Shown: positions 8,569-28,196 of the stretch, one piece after another
Position numbering within the stretch: position 1 is the first letter of the stretch
Layout: each line of letters starts with the position of its first letter
From: Oscillospiraceae bacterium
Lineage (GTDB): Bacteria; Bacillota; Clostridia; Oscillospirales; CAG-272
DNA: 64,000 nt
Direction: 5' to 3'
Assembly (NCBI GenBank): GCA_015064735.1
Contig: SVRP01000002.1
Location: 82,591 to 146,590, forward strand
Made by a program: the position numbers and the translations under genes
The notes under the pieces: generated by a model
What the model saw: the letters and a program-made list of their open reading frames with translations, nothing else
Told to the model about the DNA's origin: nothing
Database searches by the model: none

Positions 8569-8886
8569 TTACTGAGCGTTCTTGATCTCTTCGAAACATG
8601 CACTGCAGTATACGGGTCTGTCGTTGGAAGGCTGGAAAATAACCTTAGCAACGCCACCGCACTTTGCGCACGTGGTCTCGAAGTATTCACGAGGAGCTCT
8701 TCCTGCGTTCTTCTTGGCGTCGCGGCAAGCCTTGCAGCTCTTAGGCTTATTCAAAAAGCCCTTCTCCTTGTAGAAAGCCTGCTCACCTGCTGTGAAAACA
8801 AACTCGTTTCCGCACTCCTTGCATACAAGAGTTTCATCAACAAACTCGTTTTCAGCAACTTCTCCAACTTTTACTTCTTCGTTCAT
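8569..8886 (-). CDS. Zinc-ribbon protein with two CxxC...CxxC units
   Basis: CKECGNEFVFTAGEQAFYKEKGFLNKPKSCKACR and CAKCGGVAKVIFQPSNDRPVYCSACF. Start placed at ATG 8886 (GAGGT RBS) rather than track start 8940. Confidence 0.7.
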   Translation of the reverse strand: MNEEVKVGEVAENEFVDETLVCKECGNEFVFTAGEQAFYKEKGFLNKPKSCKACRDAKKNAGRAPREYFETTCAKCGGVAKVIFQPSNDRPVYCSACFEEIKNAQ

Positions 8887-8981: not shown

Positions 8982-9578
8982 TCATTTGAGAAAAGCTCTG
9001 AGTTTTCTCCGTATCCTATATACTGCATTCCATACGGATTTTTCATCCTTATCGACTACGTCTCCAATCTCCTTTGCCGTTCTGCCCGACATATAAAGAC
9101 ACCATACAGTATATTCAAAGGAAGAAAGATTTTTACGGATAACAGAGTACAACGCCTTTACTCTCTCCTCTTCCAATACCCTATCGGAAGGATCCTCAGA
9201 ATCATGAACGAAAAACATAGAACTTGTCGAGTCTGTTAACTGTTCCGCTGTATGCTTTTTATGCAATCTTAACTGAGATACTAACGCATTGGAAATACAA
9301 ATTTTCGAATACAGTCCGAATTCAACCTCAGACTGATCAATATCGAAGGTTTGAATCGCACTGTAAAATTTTAAAACAGCCTCTTGACGAAGATCGTCGT
9401 AGCTAGCTCCGCCGTCATATGCATCGTAAAACTTTGATACCTGAGCTTCAATTAAAGGATCATACCTTTGAACCAGCTCGGAAAACGAATCCTGATCCCC
9501 ATTGCGAACCTTTTTTATAAGCTCAATAATTTTTTCCTTATCAAACGCATCGGTAAATTCCATGCTCAAAATTTTCAC
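8982..9578 (-). CDS. Sigma-70 family RNA polymerase sigma factor
   Basis: Region 2-like (FSELVQRYDPLIEAQVSKF...DLRQEAVLKFYSAIQTFD) and a C-terminal region-4 HTH (RTAKEIGDVVDKDEKSVWNAVYRIRRKLR). The start is uncertain: GTG 9578 or ATG 9563. Confidence 0.75.
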   Translation of the reverse strand: MKILSMEFTDAFDKEKIIELIKKVRNGDQDSFSELVQRYDPLIEAQVSKFYDAYDGGASYDDLRQEAVLKFYSAIQTFDIDQSEVEFGLYSKICISNALVSQLRLHKKHTAEQLTDSTSSMFFVHDSEDPSDRVLEEERVKALYSVIRKNLSSFEYTVWCLYMSGRTAKEIGDVVDKDEKSVWNAVYRIRRKLRAFLK

Positions 9579-10258: not shown

Positions 10259-10412
10259 CGAAAAACTCCTTTCTGAATCCAAAATAGTATTACTTTACAT
10301 AAATATTTTATCATAAAATCAAAAAAATTTCAATATATATTTGCAATTCTCAAAAAAATGTGGTATTATATTATAGATATCTCATTTTATAACAGATTTG
10401 CGAGGAAAAATA

Positions 10413-11618
10413 ATGATTAACATTGCAATATTAGGCTTTGGCGTAGTTGGAAGCGGTACTGCCGAGGTACTTACCGAGAACAAAAAAATCATTGAAGAAA
10501 GATTGGGATGTGAATATAATATTAAGTATATTCTTGATCTCCGCGATTTTCCGGATAGTCCCTTTTCCTCTTTGATAACCCATGATTTCAAGGATATTCT
10601 TGATGACCCCGAGGTTTCCGTGGTAGCGGAAATGATGGGTGGCTCTCATCCCGCATACGATTTTACCAAGGCATGTCTCGAAGCCGGAAAAAATGTGGTT
10701 ACGTCGAATAAAGAGGTTGTATCCACCTTCGGTGTTGAGCTTTGCGAAATTGCTCGCAAAAATGGTGTAAGATACCTGTTTGAAGCAAGTGTTGGCGGTG
10801 GTATTCCGGTTATCCGTCCTATGATAAACGACCTCTCCTCAAATAAGATAAACAAGATTAGCGGTATTCTTAACGGAACCACCAACTATATTCTTACCTC
10901 CATGAAAAATGAAGGTGCAAGCTTTGATGATGCTCTTTTGTGTGCGCAAAAGCTTGGATACGCGGAAGCAAATCCCTCCGCAGACGTAGACGGCATAGAC
11001 GCAGCGCGTAAAATTGTTATTCTTGCAGCATTGGCTTCAGGTAAGCTTATTGATCCTAGGGCTATTCCTACCGTGGGTATAACAAAGATCACTCTTGCAG
11101 ATACCGAAATGGCAAAAGAATTCGGTTGTACCATAAAGCTTATCGGATATTCCGAAATTGTTGACGGAAAGCTTTGCGCGTTTGTTTCTCCCAGATTTGT
11201 TCCAACTACAAATCCCCTTTCGAGAATCGATGACGTATTCAACGGAATACTCATAAATGCAAATATGGTCGGAGACGTAATGTTCTACGGTCCGGGTGCG
11301 GGAAAGCTTCCCACTGCAAGTGCAGTAGTCGCAGATATAATCGATATAATTGCCAACATAGATTCAGAGGTTAAGCCTATCGTTTGGGAAACGGCTTCAG
11401 AATCGGATATTAATAATTTCAGCGAATATTCCTGCCCAAGAGTATTTATATTTAACTGTAAGGCAAATATCCCCGCATCTCTTTCGAAATACGAAATCAA
11501 AGAATCAGGTAATAACATATGCGGCATAATGACAGATTCTATTACGGAGAACGAAGCAGATACAATCGCTGCTGAGTTTGGCAATAATAATCTCATTTCA
11601 GTTTACAGAGTTTTATAA
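10413..11618 (+). CDS. hom: Homoserine dehydrogenase
   Basis: NAD-binding IAILGFGVVGSG, a catalytic domain (FEASVGGGIPVI, LNGTTNYILT, AEANPSADVDGIDAARK) and a C-terminal ACT-like region. Start at ATG 10413. Confidence 0.9.
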   Translation: MINIAILGFGVVGSGTAEVLTENKKIIEERLGCEYNIKYILDLRDFPDSPFSSLITHDFKDILDDPEVSVVAEMMGGSHPAYDFTKACLEAGKNVVTSNKEVVSTFGVELCEIARKNGVRYLFEASVGGGIPVIRPMINDLSSNKINKISGILNGTTNYILTSMKNEGASFDDALLCAQKLGYAEANPSADVDGIDAARKIVILAALASGKLIDPRAIPTVGITKITLADTEMAKEFGCTIKLIGYSEIVDGKLCAFVSPRFVPTTNPLSRIDDVFNGILINANMVGDVMFYGPGAGKLPTASAVVADIIDIIANIDSEVKPIVWETASESDINNFSEYSCPRVFIFNCKANIPASLSKYEIKESGNNICGIMTDSITENEADTIAAEFGNNNLISVYRVL

Positions 11619-11621
11619 ATC

Positions 11622-11651
11622 AAAAAAGAGACTGCAAGCAGTCTCTTTTTT
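11622..11651. terminator. Bidirectional terminator between hom and the Cys-rich gene
   Basis: GAGACTGC (11628-11635) pairs with GCAGTCTC (11638-11645), flanked by A6 and T6. Confidence 0.75.
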
Positions 11652-11659
11652 GATTTAGA

Positions 11660-12502
11660 TTAACTTCCGCAACCGCACTTTGGAGGATTGTTATTCTCGC
11701 ATCTTGCGGGAATATAATCGGGCGGACAAAATTCCTGTGTTGGGAATGCCATATTGCGGAAAACCGCACAAGGGTTATCGTCTTCTGCTGAAATACATTC
11801 CTTATCGGGAACGCAGTACTCGGTAGCGTTAATAATATACTGAGCAGGACGAACAAGTCTTATAACCGAGAAAATTCCAAAAGATACGGAAATATATCTG
11901 CCCTCGGAATCACAAAGAGTGCCGTTAACCGACGATGCAATTCCCGATGGTATATCGTTACAGCAACAGCAGCAACAGCAATGCTCCTCGGGTTCGCGGA
12001 CCTTTGTGCCGAGGATTATGGGATCAACGGCTTCTACGATTGCAACGGGAAGATTCTTGGTTGAACAGCAGGGTTCGGGTATTGCACAAAAATCAGAAGA
12101 TGCGCCTGTGCTCTTGAATACGTTTACGTTACTTTCGCTTCCGTAAAGTATTACTCTCTTCTCTACTACCGCAACACCCTCAAATTCCTGACTTCTGCCT
12201 CCGCACAAACAAGCTTCAAAGGTTATCTTGATATAGAATTTAATTGTTATCGAATAAAATCCTCTGTTAAATCTTACCGGATCTATTCCGATGTACGTCC
12301 ACGAAATACATGCGCTTTTGGCTCTTATATTCGCTGTGTGCTCAAGGATCTCGTTGCCGAAATCGGTAAGCAATACCTTAACATCCTCAAAGCAATCCTT
12401 ATCGCGGCAGGAATCAAGTATACGGTTTGCTTCGATACAAACCGTTTCGGGCTTCATAGGATGCTTATCTGACTGAAAGCATGAAAATCTGTTATCCGAC
12501 AT
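11660..12502 (-). CDS. Cysteine-rich hypothetical protein (280 aa, 25 Cys, Cys7 run)
   Basis: Long ORF with an AAGGAG RBS 10 nt upstream of ATG 12502. HCCCCCCCN is encoded at 11960-11980. No family recognised. Confidence 0.7.
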   Translation of the reverse strand: MSDNRFSCFQSDKHPMKPETVCIEANRILDSCRDKDCFEDVKVLLTDFGNEILEHTANIRAKSACISWTYIGIDPVRFNRGFYSITIKFYIKITFEACLCGGRSQEFEGVAVVEKRVILYGSESNVNVFKSTGASSDFCAIPEPCCSTKNLPVAIVEAVDPIILGTKVREPEEHCCCCCCCNDIPSGIASSVNGTLCDSEGRYISVSFGIFSVIRLVRPAQYIINATEYCVPDKECISAEDDNPCAVFRNMAFPTQEFCPPDYIPARCENNNPPKCGCGS

Positions 12503-12714
12503 ATTTATAAAATCTCCTTTCGGATTAATCACAAAAGCATTTTGCTTTGTCTCTTTATTATAATATGCCGTCAAAAATGTTTTGACAACAACCGGATTAT
12601 TATATTTTACTATAAAAGGATAAAATATAAAAAGATATTTTCATTTACCTCTTGCAAAAATCTGCAAAATGTATTAGAATATATATATTATTACTTTGTT
12701 TCTGTGAGGACGGT

Positions 12715-14275: not shown

Positions 14276-15541
14276 TTATGTTTTTCTCTTCTTAAAATAT
14301 GATTTCATAGCAACAGTCAAGATAATACCAATCAAAGGAAAAATTCCCGCTATAAGAAGTCCCGAACGCATACCTATCTGTTCGGTAGTTACGTTAAATG
14401 TATTTGCAAGAGATGTTCCAAATGCGGAAGAAGATATGATATCTGCCGCCGCTCCCACCATTTGAGGTGCAACGGAACATCCAAGATCACCTCCGGCAGC
14501 CATAAGAGCGTATGCCGCTACACCTGCTGTTGGGAATTTTTCGCCGACAAGTATTATATTTCCCGGCCAAAGCATAGAAACGCAAAAACCTGAAAGTACA
14601 CAGGCAATAAGTCCTACGTACGCGTTTCCTGACAGACTTGCAATTATGTAGCACACCGCCGAACCGCTCATTCCAAATATCATAAAATTCAAAATATTCT
14701 TTCCGCATTTTGAATATAAAGTTCTTCCAAGACCCAAAGCGGCGGCAAACATTGCCATTCCCAATATATTACCGACTATTTTGGAAATTCCCAGCGCTTT
14801 TTCCACATATCCTGATATCCACTGGGTCATTGCCCCCTCTGCGGCGCCTCCGAGAAATATACAGAAAAAGCACATGAGAAGACCTACGCCGAAAAGCTTT
14901 CCATTCTCCTGTTTTTCCGAATTAACATAAATCTTTGGAATCGGCGATCTTAAAAACATAATAAACGTAGAAATCGGAAAAAGCGAAAATGTCAAAGGAA
15001 GCCACATCCAATTTTGTGTTCCGATAAGAGATAAAAAGACAGTTCCGAAAATAACTACACCTACAAGTCCCCACGCATAGGTTGAATGGAGCTTACTCAT
15101 GTCTCTTTCCGGATTATCAGACGGAATTGCAGCTATAACAGGGCTGATGAGCACCTCACAAAGTCCTGCGGATGCGGAAAAGATAACCGTTCCAACAGAC
15201 AGCCACAAATATGCCGAGCTTGGGAATAATGCCGGCATAATCGAATATATAAATAATCCGATTATTGTTAACAAAGGCATAGTAATTATTGTTTTTCGTA
15301 TATTAAACACTGATGGAAAAAAAGTAAATATCAAATCAACCGCCAATTGCGTACAAAAGTTGATAACTACCAAAAATCCTAAAAGTGTATATGAAATTCC
15401 GTACGTTTCTTTAAAGGTAACAAACAGAATCGGAGAAATTGCTCCTACTGCCGCCATACCTACGTTGGTCATATAGCATGCAAATTTCGTAAGTCTGTAT
15501 TTTTTATTTTCGATTACTGATATCATTTTCTGTTTTCTCAC
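14276..15541 (-). CDS. MFS transporter
   Basis: 421 aa with about 12 hydrophobic segments in a 6+6 arrangement. The start is uncertain, because 15541 overlaps the upstream gene by 38 nt. Confidence 0.75.
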   Translation of the reverse strand: MRKQKMISVIENKKYRLTKFACYMTNVGMAAVGAISPILFVTFKETYGISYTLLGFLVVINFCTQLAVDLIFTFFPSVFNIRKTIITMPLLTIIGLFIYSIMPALFPSSAYLWLSVGTVIFSASAGLCEVLISPVIAAIPSDNPERDMSKLHSTYAWGLVGVVIFGTVFLSLIGTQNWMWLPLTFSLFPISTFIMFLRSPIPKIYVNSEKQENGKLFGVGLLMCFFCIFLGGAAEGAMTQWISGYVEKALGISKIVGNILGMAMFAAALGLGRTLYSKCGKNILNFMIFGMSGSAVCYIIASLSGNAYVGLIACVLSGFCVSMLWPGNIILVGEKFPTAGVAAYALMAAGGDLGCSVAPQMVGAAADIISSSAFGTSLANTFNVTTEQIGMRSGLLIAGIFPLIGIILTVAMKSYFKKRKT

Positions 15542-15941
15542 AAATCTCTAAAGAAAAAATCTCGTCTATATCAATAGCTTTTTTTGAGGAAAGGATCACC
15601 TTTCTTTCAAAATCGTCAATTTTATATACTGTTTCTTCCACAGTTTTATACTCTCCGCCGCTCTTTTTGCTATCGTAGATAAAGTATATTATTTTAACTT
15701 TAGGCTTATTTTTTATATTGTCAAAAATGTATTGAAGCTTCCGGTCAATAAGCTCCTTTTCATATTCATCAAGTTCAATTCGTTCGGATGTGAGGCGCTG
15801 AACCTCACTTACGGTATCTCCGTACCCTGTTAGCGCGGAAAACGGGGCAAACTGCGCAGCTCTGTCGGACACGGGCATTTGGCGTCTACTTTTTGATACG
15901 TGATGAGGAAGCGCTATTATATCGTCATATTCACCGCTCAT
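15504..15941 (-). CDS. YolD-like protein
   Basis: 145 aa. The motif SRRQMPVSDRAAQFAPFSALTGY is typical of YolD-like proteins. The start overlaps the polymerase stop (ATGA). Confidence 0.7.
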   Translation of the reverse strand: MSGEYDDIIALPHHVSKSRRQMPVSDRAAQFAPFSALTGYGDTVSEVQRLTSERIELDEYEKELIDRKLQYIFDNIKNKPKVKIIYFIYDSKKSGGEYKTVEETVYKIDDFERKVILSSKKAIDIDEIFSLEICEKTENDISNRK

Positions 15942-17428
15942 GCCTTGTGTCCTCCTATTTGCCTGTTTCTGCTCAAAGTGGTTGCGCCCTCTTCGAGATT
16001 CATACCCTTTATAATTGCATTTTTTCCGTATTTTTTCTTAATTTCAAGCATAGTTTCCTGCTTCTTTCGTTCTCTTTTTGCTTCTTCGTCTCTTAACTTT
16101 TCTTCCGCCTCTATATTTTCTGACAAAGTGAAGAAGTTTAGCTGTTCGAATTCCTCGTGGCTACCGACATTTTTTTCGTCTATAAGTCGGTTAGCGCTTA
16201 TATTTATTCGGCGAACGAGAAGGTTCGGGTCAGTTATCCTATCAAATAGCTCACCTACAGCTTTCATAATAACCTTGGTAGATGACGTATAATTTCCAAG
16301 ATTAACGGTACCGTGTCCATGTTTTGGAATTTTTCTTCCGTATCTGTCAACCGTTATTTCACCTTCGTATGTCTCTTCGTTTTTAACGTTATCAATATCA
16401 TAACCTACGGTAAGAACGATTTGATCTGTAACAAGATGCTTATCCACAAGGTCAAGAACCAATAAGTCGGTCATTTCCAAGGTAACAAGTCTTGCTTTTT
16501 CACAAGAATAAGGTGTCTGCAACACCTGACCCGAGCATATACTTGTGTTTTCGGGGCTGTAAGCCTTTATATCGGCAATGGTACATGGCTCCCACCCCCA
16601 CGCATGGTCTATAAGCAGCTCTGCGTTTACGCCAAACATTCCGTAAAGCAGATCTTCATGAGTGAGAGAGCATCTTGCTACATCCCCCATAGTCATCATT
16701 CCGTGTTCTTCAAGCTTTTTTGCATATCCCTTGCCAACTCGCCAAAAATCGGTAAGTGGAGTATGATTCCATAGTAGGCGTCGATAGCTTTCTTCGTTAA
16801 GTTCCGCAATACGAACTCCGTTCTCGTCCGGTGGAATATGCTTTGCGACTATGTCCATTGCGATTTTACAAAGATAAAGATTGCTTCCGATACCTGCAGT
16901 TGCCGTTATTCCGGTGGATTTCAATACGTCTCGTATAATTTTCATGGCAAGGCTGTGAGGATCAAGCTTATATGTTCCAAGGTAATCTGTAACGTCTATA
17001 AAAACCTCATCCACAGAATATACGTGTATATCCTCGTGTGATACATATTTAAGGTATATATTATATATCCTTGCAGAATACTCCATGTAATAAGCCATTC
17101 TGGGCGGTGCAACAATATAATCAACACCAAGAGACGGATCAGAATCCAAGGCTGTCTCGCTGTAGGAGTGTCCTTTTAATCCCCTTGCCTTTCTTGATCT
17201 TTCGTAATTCACTTCCCGAATTTTTTCAACGACTTCAAAAAGACGGGCTCTACCCGATATTCCGTATTTTTTCAACGACGGCGTTACGGCAAGACAGATA
17301 GTCTTTTCGGTTCTGTTTTTATCAGCTACCACCAAATTGGTATCCATAGGATCTAATCCACGCTCTATACACTCTACCGAAGCGTAAAAAGATTTCAGAT
17401 CTATTGCAATATAAGAACGAGCTTTCAC
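15938..17428 (-). CDS. Y-family DNA polymerase (ImpB/MucB/UmuC/YqjW-like)
   Basis: YIAIDLKSFYASVECIERGLDP...NLVVAD, then SVDEVFIDVT, then the little-finger region. 496 aa. Confidence 0.9.
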   Translation of the reverse strand: MKARSYIAIDLKSFYASVECIERGLDPMDTNLVVADKNRTEKTICLAVTPSLKKYGISGRARLFEVVEKIREVNYERSRKARGLKGHSYSETALDSDPSLGVDYIVAPPRMAYYMEYSARIYNIYLKYVSHEDIHVYSVDEVFIDVTDYLGTYKLDPHSLAMKIIRDVLKSTGITATAGIGSNLYLCKIAMDIVAKHIPPDENGVRIAELNEESYRRLLWNHTPLTDFWRVGKGYAKKLEEHGMMTMGDVARCSLTHEDLLYGMFGVNAELLIDHAWGWEPCTIADIKAYSPENTSICSGQVLQTPYSCEKARLVTLEMTDLLVLDLVDKHLVTDQIVLTVGYDIDNVKNEETYEGEITVDRYGRKIPKHGHGTVNLGNYTSSTKVIMKAVGELFDRITDPNLLVRRINISANRLIDEKNVGSHEEFEQLNFFTLSENIEAEEKLRDEEAKRERKKQETMLEIKKKYGKNAIIKGMNLEEGATTLSRNRQIGGHKA

Positions 17429-21325: not shown

Positions 21326-21790
21326 ATGAACAACAGCATTTTGACCAGAAAAAAGGACACCGTAAATAAAGTAAGTCTTGCATTAAGCAATGCTACGGCA
21401 CCACTTAATGATTACTATAATTTTTTCCCCGAGGATATAAAAGCAGGACTTATCTCCTTTAAGGAACGCAGTATAGACATAAAAAGTGCATATTTTATCT
21501 GTGCATCGAAAGTAATAAATTCTATTTCTCACGTTGAATCGTATTTATCTTCCCTGCCGTCGCTTATGATTGACGCCGATAGACTTGGGGATACACATAC
21601 TGTACTGTTTTGTGATCAGGTACTTCTTGAATTTGGAGAACTGAGAAAAGCGTTAAATACGTTTACAGCTCAAAGCGAGAAAATATTGTCTACTGTCCCA
21701 CCTTCATATTCAGGATTAATTACTGTTCTATCGGAATTCAGAGTAAAGCTTAACAAGTTTATACAGTATATTAAAGCTCTTGAATGTTAA
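21326..21790 (+). CDS. Hypothetical protein (154 aa)
   Basis: ORF only. AAGGAA lies upstream of the ATG. No recognisable motif. The 3' end overlaps the convergent glycosyltransferase gene by 20 nt. Confidence 0.45.
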   Translation: MNNSILTRKKDTVNKVSLALSNATAPLNDYYNFFPEDIKAGLISFKERSIDIKSAYFICASKVINSISHVESYLSSLPSLMIDADRLGDTHTVLFCDQVLLEFGELRKALNTFTAQSEKILSTVPPSYSGLITVLSEFRVKLNKFIQYIKALEC

Positions 21791-22910
21791 CATCCCGCCG
21801 ACAAGCCAGCTTCTCATACAATGAGTAGGTTTGTCGGCTCATTTCTTTTGCATTTAGCTCGTTTTTGTAGCGCGTGTAAGCATTTTTTGATAAAAATTTA
21901 TATTTATCCACGCTGTTTGAAAGCTCTATCAAATACGTAGCCAATATTTCGTAATTCCCTACAGGATAAACATAACCGTTATATCCGTTACGCACCATAT
22001 ACGGATTTCCGCCAAAGCTACTTACAACTGCGGGGATACCAAGGCTCATTCCCTCTGAAAGAGCAAGAGACGAGGTCTCTGTTCCCTTTGAGCAATTTAC
22101 GTTTATATCTGTTATATTAAAATATGGAGCTGTATTTTCAATAAAACCCGTAAAAATCACATATCTATCAAGTCCAAGCTCTTTGCATTTTTTCTTCAAA
22201 GCATGCTCCTCACTACCGCTTCCTACAATCAGAAATCTGAAATTATCAGATTTCTCAATAATTATTTTAGCAGCATTTAACAGATCATCATGTCCCTTGC
22301 ATTTTTCAAGTCTTGCAAAAATGCTGACCAACTTAGATTCCTCGGGAATTTTTAAATTCTTCCTCAGTTGTTTTTTTTCATTATCCGAGATTCTCTCTAT
22401 TCCGTTTACCCCATTTACAATCACCGATATGTTTTTTTCTTGAATTCCCATTTCGGTTAAATTCTTTTTAGCAGCTTCAGCAACAGCTATAATATGGTGT
22501 GAAAGTAACTTCTGGCTTAACCCGTTTATATTTCTGTACAGTTTACTTTTTTGAATTTTACTTAAAGGAAAGGCACAATGTCTTGTATACAATCTCACAG
22601 GCACACGGCAAATAAATGCCGCTATTCTGCAGGATAGCGTACCGTGGCAGTTAATTATATCGGGAGAAAGTTTTCTCAGAAGCCTTATATACATAAACAC
22701 CGCAAAAAAGTCAAAGGATTTATCCCCTCTAACCCTTGCCTCAATTACTTTTATTCCGTTATCCTCAAGTCTCTTTTTTAACACACTTTTAACAGGAATA
22801 ATTACGGAAGTGTTTTGTACATACTTTTCGGGGGCGGATGAAATCCTTGTAATTAGAACCAAGCCTGCACCACCAATATTTGTATCACTTATCACCTCGA
22901 CAATTTTCAT
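21771..22910 (-). CDS. Glycosyltransferase family 4 (GT-B, GT1 superfamily)
   Basis: N-terminal GGAG..V (ISDTNIGGAGLVL) and the C-terminal EGMSLGIPAVVSSFGGNPYMV (E-x7-E type) motif. Start placed at ATG 22910 (GGAGGG RBS). Confidence 0.85.
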   Translation of the reverse strand: MKIVEVISDTNIGGAGLVLITRISSAPEKYVQNTSVIIPVKSVLKKRLEDNGIKVIEARVRGDKSFDFFAVFMYIRLLRKLSPDIINCHGTLSCRIAAFICRVPVRLYTRHCAFPLSKIQKSKLYRNINGLSQKLLSHHIIAVAEAAKKNLTEMGIQEKNISVIVNGVNGIERISDNEKKQLRKNLKIPEESKLVSIFARLEKCKGHDDLLNAAKIIIEKSDNFRFLIVGSGSEEHALKKKCKELGLDRYVIFTGFIENTAPYFNITDINVNCSKGTETSSLALSEGMSLGIPAVVSSFGGNPYMVRNGYNGYVYPVGNYEILATYLIELSNSVDKYKFLSKNAYTRYKNELNAKEMSRQTYSLYEKLACRRDVNIQEL

Positions 22911-22968
22911 CAAGCCCTCCAAGTATTTATCATGTACGTATATTGTTTAAAATTCCCTTAAAAAGCGA

Positions 22969-23016: not shown

Positions 23017-23802
23017 TTATTTTTTCTTAAGTCTCCCTACAACTCTTCCGCAGCAGACAGCTTCGGCATATTCTCTGAGAAGTATATCCCCGTACTCCGG
23101 ATTCAAGGAAATCAACGTATCTCCACCGTATTTTTTGAAATAGCCGTTGCCGTCAAGAATAAATATACCAAGCTCACCAACATCAACCGAATCGGTATTC
23201 TCAACCAAAAGAATGTCTCCGTCGTGATATTTGGGCTCCATACTGTTTCCCTTTATGCGAAGCGCATAATCCGCGGTCTTTGTCTTATCATTGTCAGGCA
23301 CGTTTATTGTATCGGCAGTGGTATCGTCAAGATAAACACCGGGACCTGCAGAAACAGGTAAATCATACAGAAGTATAGAACGTTTTCCGATACGTGTGCT
23401 TTCTTTTGGAGAAGGAATAGGTGAAAGAATCTTTGCTGTTTTTCTTTCGTTCGAAAGCTCAGGACTGACTCCGGCACCTACTCGCTGTGATTCCTTGGCA
23501 ACTACAAGTCTTACAAGCTCCTGACCGAATCCATCAAGGGAGCGGTATTCCTCAACAAGGGACATCTCATCCGCACTCAAGGTACAATTATTTGTGTTTT
23601 GACATGTACCGCTTACAAGATAATCTACGGTGCATCCCAAGGCATCGGCAATAGCGACAATATTAGAAAGCTTTGGAGAATCACTTATACCCGCCAAAAT
23701 CTTACTTAAAGTTCCAAGCGGTATACCTGTAAGTGAAGAAAGCTTTTCGTTTGTTATCTTCTTTTCATTCTTAATCTGCTTTATTCTGTCGATATAATCC
23801 AT
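23017..23802 (-). CDS. XRE-family HTH + S24 (LexA/CI-like) autopeptidase transcriptional repressor
   Basis: N-terminal HTH_XRE (ITNEKLSSLTGIPLGTLSKILAG). A candidate Ala-Gly cleavage site (LPVSAGPGVY). S24 catalytic motifs GNSMEP and a downstream lysine (YFKKYG). Start at ATG 23802 (GGAGGGG RBS). Confidence 0.85.
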   Translation of the reverse strand: MDYIDRIKQIKNEKKITNEKLSSLTGIPLGTLSKILAGISDSPKLSNIVAIADALGCTVDYLVSGTCQNTNNCTLSADEMSLVEEYRSLDGFGQELVRLVVAKESQRVGAGVSPELSNERKTAKILSPIPSPKESTRIGKRSILLYDLPVSAGPGVYLDDTTADTINVPDNDKTKTADYALRIKGNSMEPKYHDGDILLVENTDSVDVGELGIFILDGNGYFKKYGGDTLISLNPEYGDILLREYAEAVCCGRVVGRLKKK

Positions 23803-23901
23803 GAAGTTCCCCTCCATAATTCCTTTTATGGAACTATTATATCACAAAAAGCTATACTTGTAAAGGGGTTTTTATAAAAAAATTCCATTTTCCGAAAAAT
23901 A

Positions 23902-25092
23902 TTATAATATTTCTGAAATTGCTTTTGCAACCAGCTTTGCAGAAAGTACTGCTTCCTCAAGACTGTTTCCGCATGCTCCTATTTCAAGCAAAAGAGAGGA
24001 ATATGCAAGCTCTTGATTGTACGTAGAAGACTTCAAATAAGGTGGACGGCAAAGGTTTTCGTATTTGTCATTCAAGTTTTTTCTCAACTGTAAGGCAAGT
24101 GCAAGGTTTCTTTCCCAGTTTGGATTATGTTCTCCGCCCCAACTGCTTCCGACTACGCACATAATCTGCGCCGCAGCCTTTCCGTCAACTACTGTTACCG
24201 GACGCACGAGGGCGCCGTCTGATTTAATAATCGCGTCTCTGTGTATATCTATAACCAGTTCAATCGTAGGATATTGCTTCATGTATTTTTCTATTGTTTC
24301 TTTTGCCTTTCCGTATGCACTGCCATATCCTCCGCTGTCATGCATTATTTCACAGTGAATACTCTTTATTCCAAGCTTATCTAACTCTTTTGCCAATGCA
24401 GCTCCGACAGAAACCGTATTCTTATTCTTATCAGAGGTTCTTGCTATTTCAGAGCCGTCATCACGGTATGAGATTGCCCCATTCGCACTGTATGCCTCTG
24501 TTCCGTGAGTGTGTACTATAAGAACCTTTGGAGATGTTCCGGATGAAAGATACTCTAATTTTGGATATGCGTTTAAGTTCATATTCAGAAGGGCTGTTGT
24601 ATTGGGAGTTAGACCCGTACTGTTTTGAATATAAGAGTTTCCGTATTCCGAAAGAGAAAGATCCATTGGAACTATGGGCAGATCTCCGGAGGGAACCTTG
24701 GTATAATCAAAATCGTATATATTATCTTTGGTTACGCTTGAGCCGTTTGAATTATTGTTTTTATCATTCGGTATACTTACCGTATCTTTTGAAGGCAACA
24801 GAACTCCGTTGACGCTTTGAGACGGTTTAGTATCTATATTTGTAGTCTGCCCCGAATTATCAGAAAGTCCATACAAAATTCTTTGATATAAGGACTCACC
24901 TCGGTTGAATTTTCCGAGAAAAATAACTCCTATACATAGAATTGCAATAATTGCTGCCGTTACAAAATACATTCTGTAAATAATCTTCAGCTTTTTTTCC
25001 TTTTTCTCATAAAATATGCATTCGTCATATATCGCCATATTAAGCAATGGGGTATCCTTGGGTGGCATCAACTTTTTTACTCTATCAATCAT
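23902..25092 (-). CDS. spoIIP: Stage II sporulation protein P
   Basis: N-terminal TM, then VLIVHTHGTEAY and the DIHRD motifs characteristic of SpoIIP. Adjacent to gpr, as in Bacillus. Confidence 0.85.
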   Translation of the reverse strand: MIDRVKKLMPPKDTPLLNMAIYDECIFYEKKEKKLKIIYRMYFVTAAIIAILCIGVIFLGKFNRGESLYQRILYGLSDNSGQTTNIDTKPSQSVNGVLLPSKDTVSIPNDKNNNSNGSSVTKDNIYDFDYTKVPSGDLPIVPMDLSLSEYGNSYIQNSTGLTPNTTALLNMNLNAYPKLEYLSSGTSPKVLIVHTHGTEAYSANGAISYRDDGSEIARTSDKNKNTVSVGAALAKELDKLGIKSIHCEIMHDSGGYGSAYGKAKETIEKYMKQYPTIELVIDIHRDAIIKSDGALVRPVTVVDGKAAAQIMCVVGSSWGGEHNPNWERNLALALQLRKNLNDKYENLCRPPYLKSSTYNQELAYSSLLLEIGACGNSLEEAVLSAKLVAKAISEIL

Positions 25093-25138: not shown

Positions 25139-25951
25139 TTAATTCCCCCAAAATGCCTTGTTAATTGTTTCTGAAAGTAAAATTGCTCCTGATTTTATTA
25201 TAAGTTCTATTTCTTTCGGAGTTATAAAATATTTTTTCCTTTTTTCAATATCATCTGATTTTTTAGTATCGCCATACATAAAAGATGATAGATTGGCAAC
25301 TGTGGGAATCCCTATTGATATTACCGGAATTCCGAGAGTTTCTTTATCTATTTGCTGCCTGCTTCGCCCAAGACCGCTTCCGGGAGAAAGTCCGTAATTT
25401 GATATCTGGACAGTAGATGCCAGTCTGTATATACTGCGCGCAGCAAGCGAATCAATAACAATTACTAAGTTCGGACGCAAGCTGTTTACCATAGCAAGGA
25501 TATACTTTGTGCTTTCTATTCCCGTATTTATTTCAACATCGGGAACAATAGAATATACCCTTCTTTTACCGGCGCCTTGCAACCCTGTTTTAATGTTTTT
25601 CACCGTCTCGGGACCCAAGGAATCGGTACTGAAGAAAGGATTCCCAAGACCTACGGTCAAAACAGAATAAATATCATTTTTCCCAGCCATCTGCTCTGTT
25701 ACCATTGAACTTATATCGTCAGACATTTTTGATTGCAGCAAAAAGAAATCCACGTCATTTATTTCCCAAATTTGCGGAGTAAAGTAAATTATGCTGCGCT
25801 TATTTTCGACGTTTTCAAAGTTAATTGTTTGTTTTTCAATATTTTCGGAAATTTTCTGTCTGAAAATATGAGTCGGATAAGAACTTTTTTTATTACTTTC
25901 AACAGTATTATCTGCAATCTCACAGGCAAGATCGGTAAAAATATGATTCAT
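25139..25951 (-). CDS. gpr: GPR spore (germination) endopeptidase
   Basis: MNHIFTDLACE..., VGLGNPFFSTDSLGP, VIDSLAARS, ISNYGLSPGSG, GIPVISIGIPTV. Start placed at ATG 25951 (GGAGGAAATA RBS). The 101-codon upstream extension in the track is AT-rich junk. Confidence 0.85.
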   Translation of the reverse strand: MNHIFTDLACEIADNTVESNKKSSYPTHIFRQKISENIEKQTINFENVENKRSIIYFTPQIWEINDVDFFLLQSKMSDDISSMVTEQMAGKNDIYSVLTVGLGNPFFSTDSLGPETVKNIKTGLQGAGKRRVYSIVPDVEINTGIESTKYILAMVNSLRPNLVIVIDSLAARSIYRLASTVQISNYGLSPGSGLGRSRQQIDKETLGIPVISIGIPTVANLSSFMYGDTKKSDDIEKRKKYFITPKEIELIIKSGAILLSETINKAFWGN

Positions 25952-26135
25952 TATTTCCTCCTTATAAATAAGTATGTAAAAATTGCACAAGTTATAGTTG
26001 TTTGTATTGTGCATATATCCAAAAGAAAAAACATTACCTAAATAGCTATTGATTTTATATATAAATAATGTTATAATAATATGAAAATAGCCGACCATCA
26101 GGCTACCTATAAACACCGCAGGAGGTTTCCATAAA

Positions 26136-28196
26136 ATGATGAAGAAAATTATTTCTCTTTTGCTTTGTTTGATTACTTTATTGACCGTATTTACCGGTTG
26201 TTCAAGCAAGCCCGAGGATGTGGGCGGAGAGATACATATGTATGTCGCTGACACAGTTTATAATTTTGACCCGGCACGTGCCTACGGCAACGAGTCAGCA
26301 CTGAAAGTTATAAGCCTTATGTTTGACAATCTGTTTTATCTTAACAAAAACGGCAAGGTAGAAAAGTCCTTGGCTGAAAAATACGAGATTATCGAAGATG
26401 AAAAGCTTGACGAGTATAAAATGATCATCACGCTTAAAAAGTCTGCTTGGTCTAACGGATTTGCTCTTACTGCTGATGACGTTGTATACTCTTGGAAGAG
26501 AATTCTTGATCCCGGCAACTCTTTCGAAGCTGCTGCTCTTCTCTATGATGTTAAAAACGCAAAGGCCGCAAAGAACGGCGAAAAGTCAATTGATGACGTT
26601 CTTATTTATGCCCTCAATGAGTCTCAGGTAGAAATCTGCTTTAACGGTAAGATAGACTATGACAGATTTCTCCTTAATCTTACAAGCTATGCTCTCGCTC
26701 CCGTCAAGGAAAGCATTGTAAACGGAGTTGCTGTTGAACATGACTGGGCTAAGAAAGCAACGCTTATCGCAACAAGCGGACCTTTCATGATAGACGAGGT
26801 TATTTATGCCGGAGATAGCGCAAAGCTTGTTCTTGAAAGAAACCCCAATTATATGCGTAAAGTTGATAAGGATGCCTTTGATAAATATGTTAAGCCCTAT
26901 AAGCTCGTAATTGATTACTCTTTGACAGACGAAGAAATTAAGCAGAGTGTTGAAGACGGAAGCATCCTCTATATCGGTGATATTCCCCTCTCTATCAGAA
27001 AGGATCTTGAAAACAACAAGAGACTTAAGAGAAGCGACGCGCTGAGCACCCATACATATATGCTCAATCAGGATGCTGTTATTCGGTATTATGATGCAAA
27101 AGGATTCGAAAATCTTTCTACTGTTTCCAAAGGCACTAATAAAGATGATGAATTGATCGAAGGCGTTAACGGAGAAAAGATATTTGCTAACAAAACCGTC
27201 CGCCAGGTTCTTTCACTTGTTCTCAACAGAACTGCTATCGCTGATTCCGTTGTTTTTGCAAAGCCCGCTACCGGTCTTGTATCCTACGGTGTATTTGATG
27301 TAAAGAAGAACAAATCCTTCCGCGAAGAAGGAGGGGATATTCTCGCAACCTCCGCAAGCTCGGCTGAACAGCTCAAGCAGACTCTTATCGCTGCCGGAGT
27401 TGAGCCCGAAAAGTATATGTTTGCTATTTCCGTGACTGCTTATGACGATGTTCATATGGAAATTGCAAAGCAGGTTCAGGCTGCATGGTCTTCTCTCGGT
27501 TTCCATGTTGCAATTCAAGCAATAGACGTTATTGATAATACGGATATCGACAAAACAACTCAGGAACCGATCTCTAACATTAAGGATGATCTGTTTGCAG
27601 AAAGATATCTTGAAGGTAAATTTGATGTTGCTGCTATCGATTACGTAGCATACAGCGTAGACCCATTCTCTGTTCTCGCTCCCTTTGCTTACGGATATAC
27701 CGGTCGTGCCGCAATTAATTCAAGTTCTTTCGATTTTAAGGTTCCCAACCACATTACAGGATACAATAGCGATGCATATAACGAAAAGATAGCTGCGGCT
27801 CATGCTGCCGAAGATAACGATACGCGCATTGCACTTCTCCATGAGGCAGAAAAGATTCTTATGGATGATATGGCTGTTATCCCCGTTGTATTCAACGAAA
27901 ATGCTACTATTACCGGCAAGGAGCTCAGAGGTGCTAAGTTTTCCTACTACGGAATGCCTATATTCACCAAGCTTGCATTCAAGAACGTTGGTATGATAGT
28001 TCTTTCGATTGTTCTTATTCTTGTTATTGCTCTTGGATTGGGACTTATCCCCGCCAAGATTGCTAAGAAGATGGGATATAACTTCATTATTTGGTGGGTA
28101 TACGGAACATTATTGTTTGTTATTGCGGCCGTTCATATACTCGTTATAAAAATAATAGCAAAAAATAAAGCTAAAAAAGCTGCTAAAACTGCATAA
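26136..28196 (+). CDS. ABC-type peptide/nickel family (family 5) solute-binding lipoprotein with a C-terminal double-TM extension
   Basis: Signal peptide with lipobox (LLTVFTGC). SBP_bac_5-like body (TADDVVYSWKRILDP, ...LERNPNY...). The last ~70 aa contain two hydrophobic helices and a Lys-rich tail. Confidence 0.8.
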   Translation: MMKKIISLLLCLITLLTVFTGCSSKPEDVGGEIHMYVADTVYNFDPARAYGNESALKVISLMFDNLFYLNKNGKVEKSLAEKYEIIEDEKLDEYKMIITLKKSAWSNGFALTADDVVYSWKRILDPGNSFEAAALLYDVKNAKAAKNGEKSIDDVLIYALNESQVEICFNGKIDYDRFLLNLTSYALAPVKESIVNGVAVEHDWAKKATLIATSGPFMIDEVIYAGDSAKLVLERNPNYMRKVDKDAFDKYVKPYKLVIDYSLTDEEIKQSVEDGSILYIGDIPLSIRKDLENNKRLKRSDALSTHTYMLNQDAVIRYYDAKGFENLSTVSKGTNKDDELIEGVNGEKIFANKTVRQVLSLVLNRTAIADSVVFAKPATGLVSYGVFDVKKNKSFREEGGDILATSASSAEQLKQTLIAAGVEPEKYMFAISVTAYDDVHMEIAKQVQAAWSSLGFHVAIQAIDVIDNTDIDKTTQEPISNIKDDLFAERYLEGKFDVAAIDYVAYSVDPFSVLAPFAYGYTGRAAINSSSFDFKVPNHITGYNSDAYNEKIAAAHAAEDNDTRIALLHEAEKILMDDMAVIPVVFNENATITGKELRGAKFSYYGMPIFTKLAFKNVGMIVLSIVLILVIALGLGLIPAKIAKKMGYNFIIWWVYGTLLFVIAAVHILVIKIIAKNKAKKAAKTA

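What the first reader, a model, noticed from the sequence alone, without database searches (positions are those of the whole stretch)
11660..12502. Orphan 280-aa cysteine-rich protein with an uninterrupted Cys7 run
**Seen in sequence:**
- A monocistronic minus-strand CDS with a strong RBS (AAGGAG 10 nt before ATG 12502).
- It encodes 25 Cys in 280 aa (about 9 percent).
- HCCCCCCCN is encoded by alternating TGC/TGT codons at 11960-11980, so this is not a simple slippage-prone homopolymer.
- It also contains a PCC pair, the N-terminal motif VCIEANRILDSCRDKDC, and a C-terminal CENNNPPKCGCGS.
- It is bracketed by a bidirectional terminator (11622-11651) and a 212-bp divergent promoter region containing the dyad GTCAAAA-ATG-TTTTGAC (12570-12586).

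I cannot place it in a named family.

**Inference:** the window carries spoIIP, gpr and a PdaA-like deacetylase, so the host sporulates. Cys-rich proteins such as CotY/CotZ/ExsY and CdeC build disulfide-crosslinked outer spore layers, so a coat/exosporium role is a plausible hypothesis. A metal- or cluster-binding role is the alternative.
Basis: partly seen in the sequence, partly recalled or inferred. Interest (0 to 1): 0.55.

Follow-up and report, generated by a model that had tools for sequence, protein, structure and literature searches.

The report
Divergent CsxA-type cysteine-rich spore-envelope protein
The "orphan" cysteine-rich gene is a distant relative of CsxA, the protein that tiles the outer spore sac of Clostridium sporogenes and C. 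botulinum, which suggests that uncultured gut and rumen Oscillospiraceae build their outer spore layer in a similar way.

Summary
The CDS at 11660-12502 (-) encodes 280 aa with 25 Cys. HCCCCCCCN is encoded by mixed TGC/TGT codons at 11960-11980.

The protein is not an orphan.
- It is 100% identical to a deposited "hypothetical protein" from a Ruminococcaceae/Oscillospiraceae MAG.
- It has more than 2,300 close database relatives, 901 clusters at 50% identity, and relatives in at least 569 GTDB species. Named sources are almost all Clostridia.
- Profile comparisons tie the family over nearly its full length to CsxA (Pfam PF27077): hhalign probability 98.9%, E 1e-17. The C. sporogenes spore proteins CsxC and CsxB, used as controls, do not match.
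- Six Cys are near-invariant across both families.

Upstream, 74 of 78 orthologous regions share TGTCAAA-N12-GCATAnnAT. This is a mother-cell (sigma K/E-type) -10 box, and the window's version is CATATTAT. A 5' stem-loop follows it.

The window also carries spoIIP, gpr and a pdaA-like gene.

Best reading: a mother-cell-expressed, self-assembling, disulfide-cross-linked spore-envelope scaffold. The long poly-Cys run belongs to the relatives sharing about 55% identity or more, and its length varies (3-9).

The exosporium idea is supported by homology and promoter, not by experiment. Novelty is modest.

The parts
11660..12502 (-). CDS for a 280-aa, 25-Cys protein that is a divergent member of the CsxA superfamily.
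   Evidence: The ORF and its translation were read directly. It is 100% identical to MBE6667031.1, a 'hypothetical protein'. The family profile matches CsxA with hhalign probability 98.1-98.9%, and HMMER agrees.
11960..11980 (-). Seven consecutive Cys codons (TGC TGT TGC TGC TGT TGC TGT), residues 175-181, in a low-confidence surface linker.
   Evidence: The codons were read. pLDDT dips in this segment. Run length is 3-9 in close relatives, and interrupted runs persist down to about 56% identity.
12392..12448 (-). N-terminal core motif ETVCIEANRILDSCRDKDC (residues 19-37), carrying the superfamily-conserved C22, C32 and C37.
   Evidence: The merged alignment A5 of this family with CsxA homologues shows these Cys at 90% conservation or more. 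hhalign aligns this stretch with CsxA VEICCIQVPKVFDQCLRKEC.
11720..11896 (-). C-terminal core (residues 203-261: YISVSFGIFSVIRL...EYCVPDKEC...DNPCAVF...FPTQEFCPP), carrying conserved C230, C236 and C245. This is the best-conserved block shared with CsxA.
   Evidence: BLASTP against CsxA gives E 9e-5 over residues 203-255. hhalign and alignment A5 cover the same block.
12514..12519 (-). Ribosome-binding site AAGGAG, 11 nt upstream of the ATG.
   Evidence: The sequence was read. Orthologous loci have AGGAGG-type sites at the same place.
12560..12567 (-). -10 element CATATTAT, of the mother-cell sigma factor (sigma K/E) type.
   Evidence: 72 of 74 scored orthologous upstream regions have CATA at this position, with T7 at 100% and a preceding G at 85%. 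The string is identical to the 'canonical -10 box for mother cell sigma factors' quoted in PMC3789822.
12583..12588 (-). -35-like box TTGTCA. The conserved C lies 16 nt upstream of CATA.
   Evidence: The position table shows C at 82% and the following A at 86%. The sigma-70 scan also reads TTGTCA-17-TATTAT with 10 of 12 matches.
12570..12586 (.). It overlaps the -35 box and the promoter spacer.
   Evidence: It is present in the window. The spacer positions are not conserved across loci, so the dyad is lineage-specific or incidental.
12531..12550 (-). Stem-loop at or near the predicted 5' end of the transcript (ACAAAGCA-AAA-TGCTTTTGT).
   Evidence: Across 74 loci the mean folding z-score is -1.77. 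Perfect stems of 6 bp or more occur in 62% of loci against 17% of shuffles, with 50 distinct arm sequences. The window's leader folds with z -2.2.
11622..11651 (.). Bidirectional intrinsic terminator (A6-GAGACTG-CTTG-CAGTCTC-T6), shared with the convergent homoserine dehydrogenase gene.
   Evidence: It folds at -24.4 kcal/mol on both strands, z -8.9 and -7.7. The hom gene at 10398-11618 (+) was identified.

Best explanation
The gene encodes a divergent member of the CsxA superfamily. [quoted passage not shown]

**Proposed mechanism**
- The monocistronic gene is transcribed late in sporulation in the mother cell, from a sigma K-type (possibly sigma E-type) promoter.
- The mRNA starts with a stabilising 5' stem-loop.
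- The all-beta protein oligomerises and tiles the surface of the developing spore.
- The lattice is locked by cooperative disulfide bonds. Six Cys form the core conserved across the superfamily. The remaining Cys, including the surface poly-Cys loop, supply inter-subunit cross-links.

**Shown here**
- Homology to CsxA.
- The conserved Cys core.
- A conserved promoter motif with a mother-cell-type -10 box.
- Sporulation genes in the same genome.

**Inferred**
- Timing and cell type of expression.
- Self-assembly.
- Location in the exosporium rather than a coat layer.
- The cross-linking role of the Cys run.
For: **Homology to CsxA**
- The family profile A2 against C. sporogenes CsxA gives hhalign probability 98.1%, E 7e-14, over 221 columns.
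- A2 against the CsxA-family profile A4 gives 98.9%, E 1.1e-17, over 212 columns.
- The HMM built from this family hits CsxA (46.5 bits) and all 87 CsxA homologues, but not CsxB or CsxC.
- The CsxA-family HMM scores the window protein 29.4 bits, E 2.4e-5 at Z = 1e6. It scores intermediate family members up to 76.6 bits.
- Two family members (P0275, P0386) already carry the precomputed PF27077 (CsxA) hit.
- The negative control CsxC, a cysteine-rich C. sporogenes spore protein with 14 Cys, gives hhalign probability 0.3%.

**Shared architecture**
- The window protein has 280 aa and 25 Cys. CsxA has 299 aa and 25 Cys.
- C22, C32, C37, C230, C236 and C245 are at least 90% conserved across both families.
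- The AF2 model is confident (pLDDT 80.4) and all-beta, with the Cys run in a low-confidence linker.

**Expression signals**
- 74 of 78 orthologous upstream regions share tTGTCAAA-N12-GCATAnnATnTTA.
- A strict form of the motif is found in 46 of 78 regions, against 0.34 in shuffles.
- The window's -10 box, CATATTAT, equals the canonical mother-cell box quoted in PMC3789822.
- C. sporogenes csxA itself has TCACA-N16-CATACTATA, which fits AC-N17-CATAnnnTA.

**Genomic setting**
- spoIIP, gpr and a pdaA-like gene lie in the window.
- sigG lies directly upstream in 8 related loci.
- Named sources of homologues are Clostridia, apart from one bin labelled Bulleidia.
Against: - There are no expression, localisation or assembly data for any member of this branch.
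- The curated Pfam CsxA model does not register for the window protein's own 90% cluster. The precomputed field is '-'.
- Pairwise identity to CsxA is only about 17-22%.
- The csxA neighbourhood of C. sporogenes (collagen-like bclA genes, a glycosyltransferase, a divergent 587-aa partner) is absent here. No CsxB or CsxC homologue was found in the window or in 80 related loci.
- The -35 box is TC/GTCA, not the textbook AC (sigma K) or ATA (sigma E).
- The same DNA also reads as a good sigma-A promoter, TTGTCA-17-TATTAT.
- Foldseek found no related solved or viral structure, so the claimed SPOCS/tripod fold could not be checked.
Confidence: 0.75

Rival explanations
1. The protein is a CsxA-superfamily member with a different place in the spore envelope. 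It could be a coat or parasporal layer component or a morphogenetic organiser, as CsxC, CdeC, CotE and SipL are, rather than an exosporium basal-layer tile. This would fit a host whose spores have no sac-like exosporium.
For: - No collagen-like (BclA-type) or glycosyltransferase genes lie near the gene in the window or in 80 related loci. In Clostridium these genes usually accompany csxA (PMC7333573).
- The family is very distant from CsxA, at 17-22% identity.
- The 2026 preprint describes related folds used for several different envelope roles.
Against: - The sequence relationship is specifically to CsxA and not to CsxC.
- Length, Cys count and the conserved core match CsxA.
- Nothing here positively indicates a coat location.
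Confidence: 0.2
2. The protein is a metal-binding, Fe-S-binding or redox-buffering protein. The Cys7 run and the C-terminal CGC would chelate metal or scavenge oxidants, with no structural role in the spore.
For: - Cys content is 8.9%, with an uninterrupted C7 run and a conserved C-terminal K-C-G-C.
- No experiment excludes metal binding.
Against: - No metallothionein, ferredoxin or other metal-binding family matched in Pfam or NCBIfam.
- The run length varies from 3 to 9 and is interrupted by N, G, K, T, S, H or Q in relatives. More distant family members have only 1-3 consecutive Cys. That is not expected for a defined metal site.
- The conserved Cys lie in beta-strand core motifs shared with a known structural lattice protein.
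Confidence: 0.04
3. The conserved upstream motif is an ordinary sigma-A promoter (TTGTCA-17-TAnnAT). The protein would then be made in vegetative cells, for example as a cell-surface or stress protein, so the link to sporulation would be only ancestral.
For: - The sigma-70 scan scores TTGTCA-17-TATTAT at 10 of 12 matches with the optimal spacing.
- The -35 box resembles TTGACA more than it resembles the AC or ATA elements of sigma K or sigma E.
Against: - The three bases before the TA are G (85%), C (97%) and A (100%). This gives GCATA, not the TGn of extended sigma-A promoters.
- The inner two positions of the hexamer are unconstrained, as in CATAnnnT(A) mother-cell boxes.
- A subgroup of loci has a canonical AC-N16-CATA.
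- C. sporogenes csxA shows the same GCATAnnAT box with AC-N17.
- The protein has no signal peptide or membrane segment, judged from the sequence and not run through a predictor. That fits assembly inside the mother cell.
Confidence: 0.08

Closest known systems
[quoted passage not shown]
   Same: - Homology over nearly the full length by profile methods.
- Similar size and Cys count: 280 aa with 25 Cys here, 299 aa with 25 Cys in CsxA.
- The same N-terminal motif, VCI-x3-(K/R)-(I/V)-x-D-x-C-x2-K-x-C.
- The same C-terminal motif, TLG-x-F-x-I-V-...-P-A-Y-x-Y-C-x-P-x3-C-x4-6-DPC-x2-F.
- A Cys-dense variable linker before the last beta-hairpin.
- A GCATAnnAT mother-cell-type -10 box upstream.
- A monocistronic gene.
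   Different: - Identity is only about 17-22%.
- The curated Pfam model does not register for this protein's own cluster.
- The host is an Oscillospiraceae/Ruminococcaceae gut or rumen lineage, not Clostridium sensu stricto.
- A homopolymeric Cys run of 5-9 replaces CsxA's C-G-G-G-C-N-C-G-C-T-C. It lies on the other side of the short linker helix in the MAFFT alignment.
- It has a C-terminal KCGCGS in place of CsxA's long acidic tail.
- No neighbouring bclA-like, glycosyltransferase or divergent 587-aa genes.
CsxC, CdeC and C. sordellii CsA/CsB: cysteine-rich SPOCS/DUF3794-fold spore-envelope proteins of Clostridia
   Same: They are cysteine-rich, made for the spore envelope, and proposed to form disulfide-stabilised trimers and lattices (bioRxiv 10.64898/2026.09.03.749163).
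   Different: - No sequence relationship to CsxC is detectable (hhalign probability 0.3%).
- CsxC hits Pfam DUF7852 and, weakly, SipL/SPOCS. The window protein and its family hit neither.
- CdeC, CsA and CsB sequences were not on hand and were not compared.
ExsY, CotY and CotZ of Bacillus: cysteine-rich exosporium or crust proteins that self-assemble
   Same: They represent the same physical strategy: a small cysteine-rich protein forms a high-symmetry 2D array that is disulfide cross-linked inside the mother cell (PMC7333573).
   Different: They are analogous, not homologous. No Pfam match of any kind was found for the window protein or 54 family members. The published work also states that CsxA and ExsY/CotY are unrelated in sequence and fold.

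Membership tests
CsxA family (Pfam PF27077, 'exosporium protein CsxA') | Significant sequence homology to CsxA over most of its length. | tested here: met
   hhalign gives 98.1% (E 7e-14, 221 columns) against CsxA and 98.9% (E 1e-17, 212 columns) against the CsxA-family profile. HMMER hits are reciprocal: 46.5 bits for CsxA and 29.4 bits for the window protein. The controls CsxB and CsxC are negative.
CsxA family (Pfam PF27077, 'exosporium protein CsxA') | Recognition by the curated Pfam PF27077 model. | tested here: not met
   The precomputed Pfam field is '-' for the window protein's own 90% cluster (P0001) and for 118 of the 120 family members listed. Only P0275 and P0386 carry PF27077. The model is absent from the local Pfam copy, so it could not be run directly.
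CsxA family (Pfam PF27077, 'exosporium protein CsxA') | A cysteine-rich protein of about 250-300 aa with the conserved Cys core. | tested here: met
   The window protein has 25 Cys in 280 aa. CsxA has 25 in 299. C22, C32, C37, C230, C236 and C245 are at least 90% conserved across the merged alignment.
CsxA family (Pfam PF27077, 'exosporium protein CsxA') | Self-assembly into a hexagonal, reducible (disulfide cross-linked) 2D lattice. | not testable with these tools
   This needs recombinant expression with EM or AFM, or at least multimer structure prediction. Only a monomer AF2 model was possible.
CsxA family (Pfam PF27077, 'exosporium protein CsxA') | Location in the exosporium, and a requirement for it. 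| not testable with these tools
   No spore proteome or mutant exists for this lineage in the library searched.
CsxA family (Pfam PF27077, 'exosporium protein CsxA') | Sporulation-specific expression in the mother cell. | tested here: inconclusive
   A conserved GCATAnnAT -10 box with a C 16 nt upstream is present in 74 of 78 loci, and C. sporogenes csxA has a similar box. The -35 is atypical and a sigma-A reading is possible. There are no transcript data.
CsxA family (Pfam PF27077, 'exosporium protein CsxA') | Co-location with collagen-like-repeat (BclA-type) and glycosyltransferase genes. This is frequent for csxA but not universal. | tested here: not met
   No G-X-Y repeat ORF occurs in the 64-kb window. 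No such genes recur within about 4.5 kb of the gene in 80 related loci. The nearest GT4 glycosyltransferase in the window is 9 kb away, at 21771-22922.
SPOCS / DUF3794 (SipL, PF12673) fold superfamily | A sequence or structure match to the SPOCS domain. | tested here: not met
   The window protein and 54 family members gave no PF12673 hit at E up to 1-10. Foldseek against PDB and BFVD gave nothing at E<1e-3. A fold-level test against AlphaFold models of CsxA, CotE and SipL could not be run.
CotY/CotZ/ExsY family (Bacillus) | A Pfam or sequence match. | tested here: not met
   No Pfam or NCBIfam family reached significance.
Metallothionein or Fe-S proteins | A match to a known metal-binding family, and a fixed Cys spacing. 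| tested here: not met
   No family match was found. The length and composition of the Cys run vary among close relatives.

The most novel reading that the evidence does not exclude
The poly-Cys loop is more than extra cross-linking capacity. In a CsxA-type lattice, the loops of neighbouring subunits would converge at symmetry axes or pores. Each node would then hold a cluster of some 20-40 thiols. Such a cluster could act as a redox-sensitive gate, an oxygen or oxidant sink, or a metal trap on spores of strict anaerobes. The in-frame (TGY)n length variation (3-9 Cys) would tune cross-link density or gating between lineages.
Probability: 0.1. Interest if true: 0.6.

Novelty: new member of a known kind. 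Interest (0 to 1): 0.33.

Why it matters
- CsxA-type lattices have been described only in Clostridium sensu stricto and close relatives.
- This result places a very large, unannotated family inside the same superfamily. The family has relatives in at least 569 GTDB species of gut and rumen Clostridia, and every named source calls it "hypothetical".
- It therefore gives a concrete candidate for the outermost spore scaffold of Oscillospiraceae-type commensals, whose spores mediate host-to-host transmission. That last point rests on my background knowledge, not on a source cited here.
- It shows that the current Pfam CsxA model misses this branch.
- It offers a natural series of poly-Cys loop lengths for testing the proposed principle of cooperative disulfide cross-linking.
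- It is an annotation and homology-extension result, not a new kind of system.

Tried and rejected
**Searches that found nothing**
- Direct scans of the protein against Pfam, NCBIfam, PHROGs and PDB sequences gave nothing significant.
- A Pfam scan of 54 family members gave only scattered chance hits.
- A profile search of PDB sequences gave 0 hits.
- The first AF2 run, with 22 close homologues, was poor (pLDDT 55). The second, with 54 diverse homologues, gave pLDDT 80.4.
- Foldseek of that second model against PDB and BFVD gave nothing at E<1e-3. The top hits (SecB, secretins, phage neck proteins) have TM-scores of 0.2 or less and were dismissed.

**Context checks**
- No operon or functional neighbour is conserved across the family.
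  - The divergent DUF1846 gene is kept only in 11 close loci (all at least 65% identical).
  - clpX/clpP lies downstream in about 20 loci.
  - sigG lies upstream in 8 loci.
- I looked for C. sporogenes exosporium-cluster partners in the window and in 80 loci and found none. The partners were CsxB, CsxC, the divergent 587-aa protein, the 206-aa Cys-rich protein and DUF4489.
- No collagen-like repeats occur in the window.
- The promoter motif was searched for elsewhere, to look for a regulon. There are no further good sites in the window. Off-target hits in the loci are at chance level: 5 found, 5.3 expected.

**Readings rejected**
- GCATA as a forespore (sigma F/G) -35 element. No conserved -10 follows it, and a conserved box sits at -35 distance upstream.
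- TTG 12574 as the start codon (304 aa). It lies upstream of the -10 box, and every homologue aligns from the ATG.
- The first pattern I used for the window had one N too many, so it missed the real site. This was corrected.
Full report
**1. The observation**

The minus-strand ORF from ATG 12502 to the stop at 11660 encodes 280 aa. It contains 25 Cys (8.9%), at residues 8, 22, 32, 37, 65, 98, 100, 139, 145, 146, 175-181, 197, 230, 236, 245, 259, 268, 276 and 278.

The Cys run is encoded by CAT TGC TGT TGC TGC TGT TGC TGT AAC at 11960-11980.

The signals around the gene check out as follows.
- The RBS AAGGAG sits at 12514-12519.
- The hairpin at 11622-11651 folds at -24.4 kcal/mol in both orientations, z -8.9 and -7.7. 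It is shared with the convergent homoserine dehydrogenase gene at 10398-11618.
- The divergent neighbour at 12652/12715-14199 is a PRK13663/DUF1846-type protein.
- The window carries spoIIP (23902-25092, 162 bits against a cutoff of 123) and gpr (25139-26254, 168 bits against 120).
- It also carries a pdaA-like deacetylase (41410-42198, 267 bits, below the equivalog cutoff of 298).

The description is accurate. The word "orphan" is not.

**2. It is not an orphan**

- The protein is 100% identical to MBE6667031.1. That entry is annotated as a hypothetical protein of a Ruminococcaceae/Oscillospiraceae MAG.
- A search of the 90%-clustered protein collection returned 2,330 hits. The best 120 are 69-90% identical and cover nearly the full length.
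- An exhaustive HMMER scan of 50%-identity representatives gave 901 clusters at E<1e-3 and 122 at E<1e-30.
- A profile search gave 4,669 hits.
The 80 loci kept are almost all gut, rumen or faecal Clostridia MAGs.
- Wherever a name is given it is "hypothetical protein". Named organisms include Solibaculum mannosilyticum (Oscillospiraceae) and Candidatus Avimonoglobus.
- Among 22 close homologues, 21 of the 25 Cys positions are at least 90% conserved.

**3. What it is related to**

Direct scans were empty.
- Pfam, NCBIfam and PDB sequences gave nothing for the protein itself.
- A Pfam scan of 54 diverse family members also gave nothing.

The lead came from the literature on clostridial exosporia.
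- CsxA of C. sporogenes has 299 residues and 25 cysteines. It forms the disulfide-cross-linked hexagonal basal layer of the exosporium (PMC4942563, PMC7333573).
- A September 2026 preprint reports that it is essential for the exosporium. The preprint models it as an intertwined trimer of the SPOCS/DUF3794 fold.

I took the CsxA sequence from the supplement of PMC4942563 and compared it with the window protein and its family.
- BLASTP detects only the C-terminal 53 residues (28% identity, E 9e-5).
- The family profile A2 aligns with CsxA over 221 columns (hhalign probability 98.1%, E 7e-14).
- A2 aligns with a profile of 37 CsxA homologues (A4) over 212 columns (probability 98.9%, E 1.1e-17).
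- With HMMER, the HMM of this family hits CsxA (46.5 bits) and all 87 CsxA homologues. It hits neither CsxB nor CsxC.
- The CsxA-family HMM scores the window protein 29.4 bits (E 2.4e-5 with Z set to 1e6).
- It finds 333 of 391 members of this family at E<1e-3. Intermediates such as P0386 reach 76.6 bits.
- CsxC, another cysteine-rich spore protein, served as a negative control and gave hhalign probability 0.3%. The signal is therefore not just shared Cys richness.

All CsxA homologues carry the precomputed Pfam domain PF27077, which a later call names "CsxA". In this family only 2 of the 120 listed members do, and the window protein's own cluster does not.

The merged alignment shows the shared core.
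- N-terminal motif: E-x-VCI-x3-(K/R)-(I/V)-x-D-x-C-x2-K-x-C, carrying C22, C32 and C37.
- C-terminal motif: TLG-x-F-x-I-V-...-Q-L-L-I-P-A-Y-x-Y-C-x-P-x3-C-x4-6-D-P-C-x2-F-...-P-...-F-x-P, carrying C230, C236 and C245.

The protein is thus a deeply divergent branch of the CsxA superfamily, about 17-22% identical to CsxA. The curated Pfam model mostly misses this branch.

**4. Structure**

- With 54 diverse homologues, AF2 gave a confident monomer: pLDDT 80.4, pTM 0.74, and 140 residues above 90.
- The model has long beta-strands at 21-46, 59-75, 82-99, 103-120, 153-169 and 203-224.
- Confidence is low for residues 121-152, the Cys-run linker and the C-terminal tail.
- Foldseek found nothing at E<1e-3 in PDB or BFVD. 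A profile search of PDB sequences found nothing either.
- The published claim of a SPOCS/DUF3794 tripod for CsxA could not be checked for this protein. No multimer prediction or AlphaFold DB library was available.
- At sequence level there is no SipL/SPOCS hit. CsxC does give a weak one.

**5. The poly-Cys run**

- The run lies in the variable linker between the VEAVDPIIL strand and the final conserved hairpin.
- In relatives at least about 70% identical, the longest run is 3-9 Cys. Counts by run length are 3:3, 4:12, 5:32, 6:17, 7:26, 8:24 and 9:6.
- More distant family members have runs of 1-3, and CsxA homologues 1-2.
- At DNA level the run is a (TGY)n tract that gains and loses codons. It is interrupted by N, G, K, T, S, H or Q down to about 56% identity.
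- The loop is therefore consistently Cys-dense, while the homopolymer itself is an expansion of variable length confined to these closer relatives. The mixed TGC/TGT codons have not made it length-stable.
- CsxA's own Cys cluster (DCGGGCNCGCTC) lies in the same linker. hhalign aligned the two clusters in one comparison but not in the other.
- MAFFT puts them on opposite sides of a short helix. I claim the same linker, not the same position.

**6. Expression signals**

I aligned the upstream regions of 78 orthologues.
- 74 of them carry tTGTCAAA-N12-GCATAnnATnTTAnnGA, with the C of CATA mostly about 50-70 nt before the ATG.
- Conservation at key positions is C of GTCA 82%, G before CATA 85%, CATA in 72 of 74, and T7 100%.
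- A strict regular expression matched 46 of 78 regions, against 0.34 expected from shuffles.
- Within 1.7 Mb of loci plus window, counting both strands, almost all matches lie upstream of this gene. The remainder is at chance level.
- In the window the boxes are TTGTCA (12588-12583) and CATATTAT (12567-12560).
- CATATTAT is literally the "canonical -10 box for mother cell sigma factors" quoted by Saujet et al. 2013. [quoted passage not shown]
- Here the conserved C lies 16 nt upstream of CATA. A subgroup of loci has a textbook AC-N16-CATA.
- C. sporogenes csxA has TCACA-N16-CATACTATA, and Hathewaya csxA has GTAACA-N15-TATATTATA.

I therefore favour a sigma K-type late mother-cell promoter. Sigma E is not excluded.

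There is a caveat. The same bases score 10 of 12 as a sigma-A promoter, TTGTCA-17-TATTAT. Two things argue against that reading: the near-invariant G-C-A before the TA, and the unconstrained inner positions of the hexamer.

**7. Leader stem-loop**

- Immediately downstream of the -10 box, at the expected 5' end of the transcript, nearly every locus has a stem-loop whose sequence differs while the pairing is kept.
- The mean folding z-score is -1.77 over 74 loci.
- Perfect stems of 6 bp or more occur in 62% of loci against 17% of shuffles, with 50 distinct arm sequences.
- In the window the stem-loop lies at about 12531-12550.
- A 5'-terminal stem-loop is a known way of stabilising mRNA in Firmicutes. 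That statement rests on my background knowledge and is inference here.

**8. Context**

- The gene is monocistronic, and no operon partner is conserved.
- The divergent DUF1846 gene is retained only in 11 close loci, all at least 65% identical.
- clpX/clpP lies convergently downstream in about 20 loci, and sigG lies directly upstream in 8.
- No G-X-Y repeat ORF occurs in the window, and no glycosyltransferase recurs beside the gene. No homologue of CsxB, CsxC or the other C. sporogenes cluster proteins occurs in the window or in the 80 loci.

**9. Mechanism and rivals**

Best-supported explanation (confidence about 0.75): a spore-envelope scaffold made in the mother cell. It self-assembles like CsxA and is locked by disulfides, and the poly-Cys loop provides extra inter-subunit cross-links.

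Whether the layer is a true sac-like exosporium or another outer layer is open. I put the alternative-layer reading at about 0.2. The metal/redox reading (about 0.04) and the vegetative sigma-A reading (about 0.08) have little support.

**10. Novelty**

This is a known kind of protein in a lineage where it has not been annotated. In the library searched, no paper clearly links CsxA to Oscillospiraceae or Ruminococcaceae. One paper contains these terms, but I did not open it.

The finding is useful for annotation and for spore biology of gut commensals. It is not a new category of system.

Noticed in passing
window 12531-12550 (-), and the same position in L001-L080: A stem-loop sits at the predicted 5' end of the mRNA. 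Its structure is conserved but its sequence is not: 50 distinct arm sequences, and stems of 6 bp or more in 62% of loci against 17% of shuffles. It is probably an mRNA-stabilising 5' hairpin for a heavily expressed late gene.
   Followed up: partly
window 12556-12588 (-), and L001-L080 upstream regions: The conserved -35 box is TGTCA(A/T)A, not the textbook AC or ATA. Downstream of CATAnnAT there is a further conserved T-T-A-n-n-G-A. This may reflect lineage-specific sigma K recognition or an overlapping regulator site. TTGTC resembles a SpoIIID half-site as I recall it, which I did not test.
   Followed up: partly
window 8982-9578 (-): A 198-aa sigma-70-family protein lies 2 kb from the gene. 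Its best NCBIfam matches are SigH-type models, but far below their cutoffs (83.7 bits against 212). Next to it is a small CxxC-x17-CxxC protein at 8569-8886.
   Followed up: no
window 15504-17428 (-) and 23017-23817 (-): A 145-aa ORF overlaps the start of a Y-family DNA polymerase IV gene. That layout looks like a YolD-like/DinB SOS-type pair, but the 145-aa ORF had no NCBIfam match. A LexA/RstR-like repressor lies 6 kb away.
   Followed up: no
L081 1236-1856 (+) and L082 4946-5740 (+): Next to bona fide csxA, C. sporogenes encodes a 206-aa protein with 22 Cys (including CGGCCCNCDCD). Hathewaya encodes a 264-aa DUF4489 protein with 22 Cys. Short Cys runs therefore recur in proteins of exosporium loci. 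Neither protein has a homologue in the window.
   Followed up: partly
L021, L025, L037, L041, L044 and related loci, about 90 nt upstream of the csxA-like gene: In 8 related loci the gene lies directly downstream of a SigG-like sporulation sigma factor gene on the same strand. I identified it as SigG-like by eye, from recalled similarity to B. subtilis SigG. This is a lineage-specific link to a sporulation locus.
   Followed up: partly
L029 11006-11281 and L062 11116-11436: A small Cys-rich ORF (motif CGCEKH...KCDV.NC.YHD.D.YCTA) lies a few kb from the csxA-like gene in two loci. I recall it as DUF1540-like and possibly spore-associated. It was not examined.
   Followed up: no
Pfam annotation: The Pfam CsxA model (PF27077) registers for all 87 Clostridium-type CsxA homologues, but for only 2 of 120 members of this Oscillospiraceae-type branch. 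The model's coverage of the superfamily is incomplete.
   Followed up: yes
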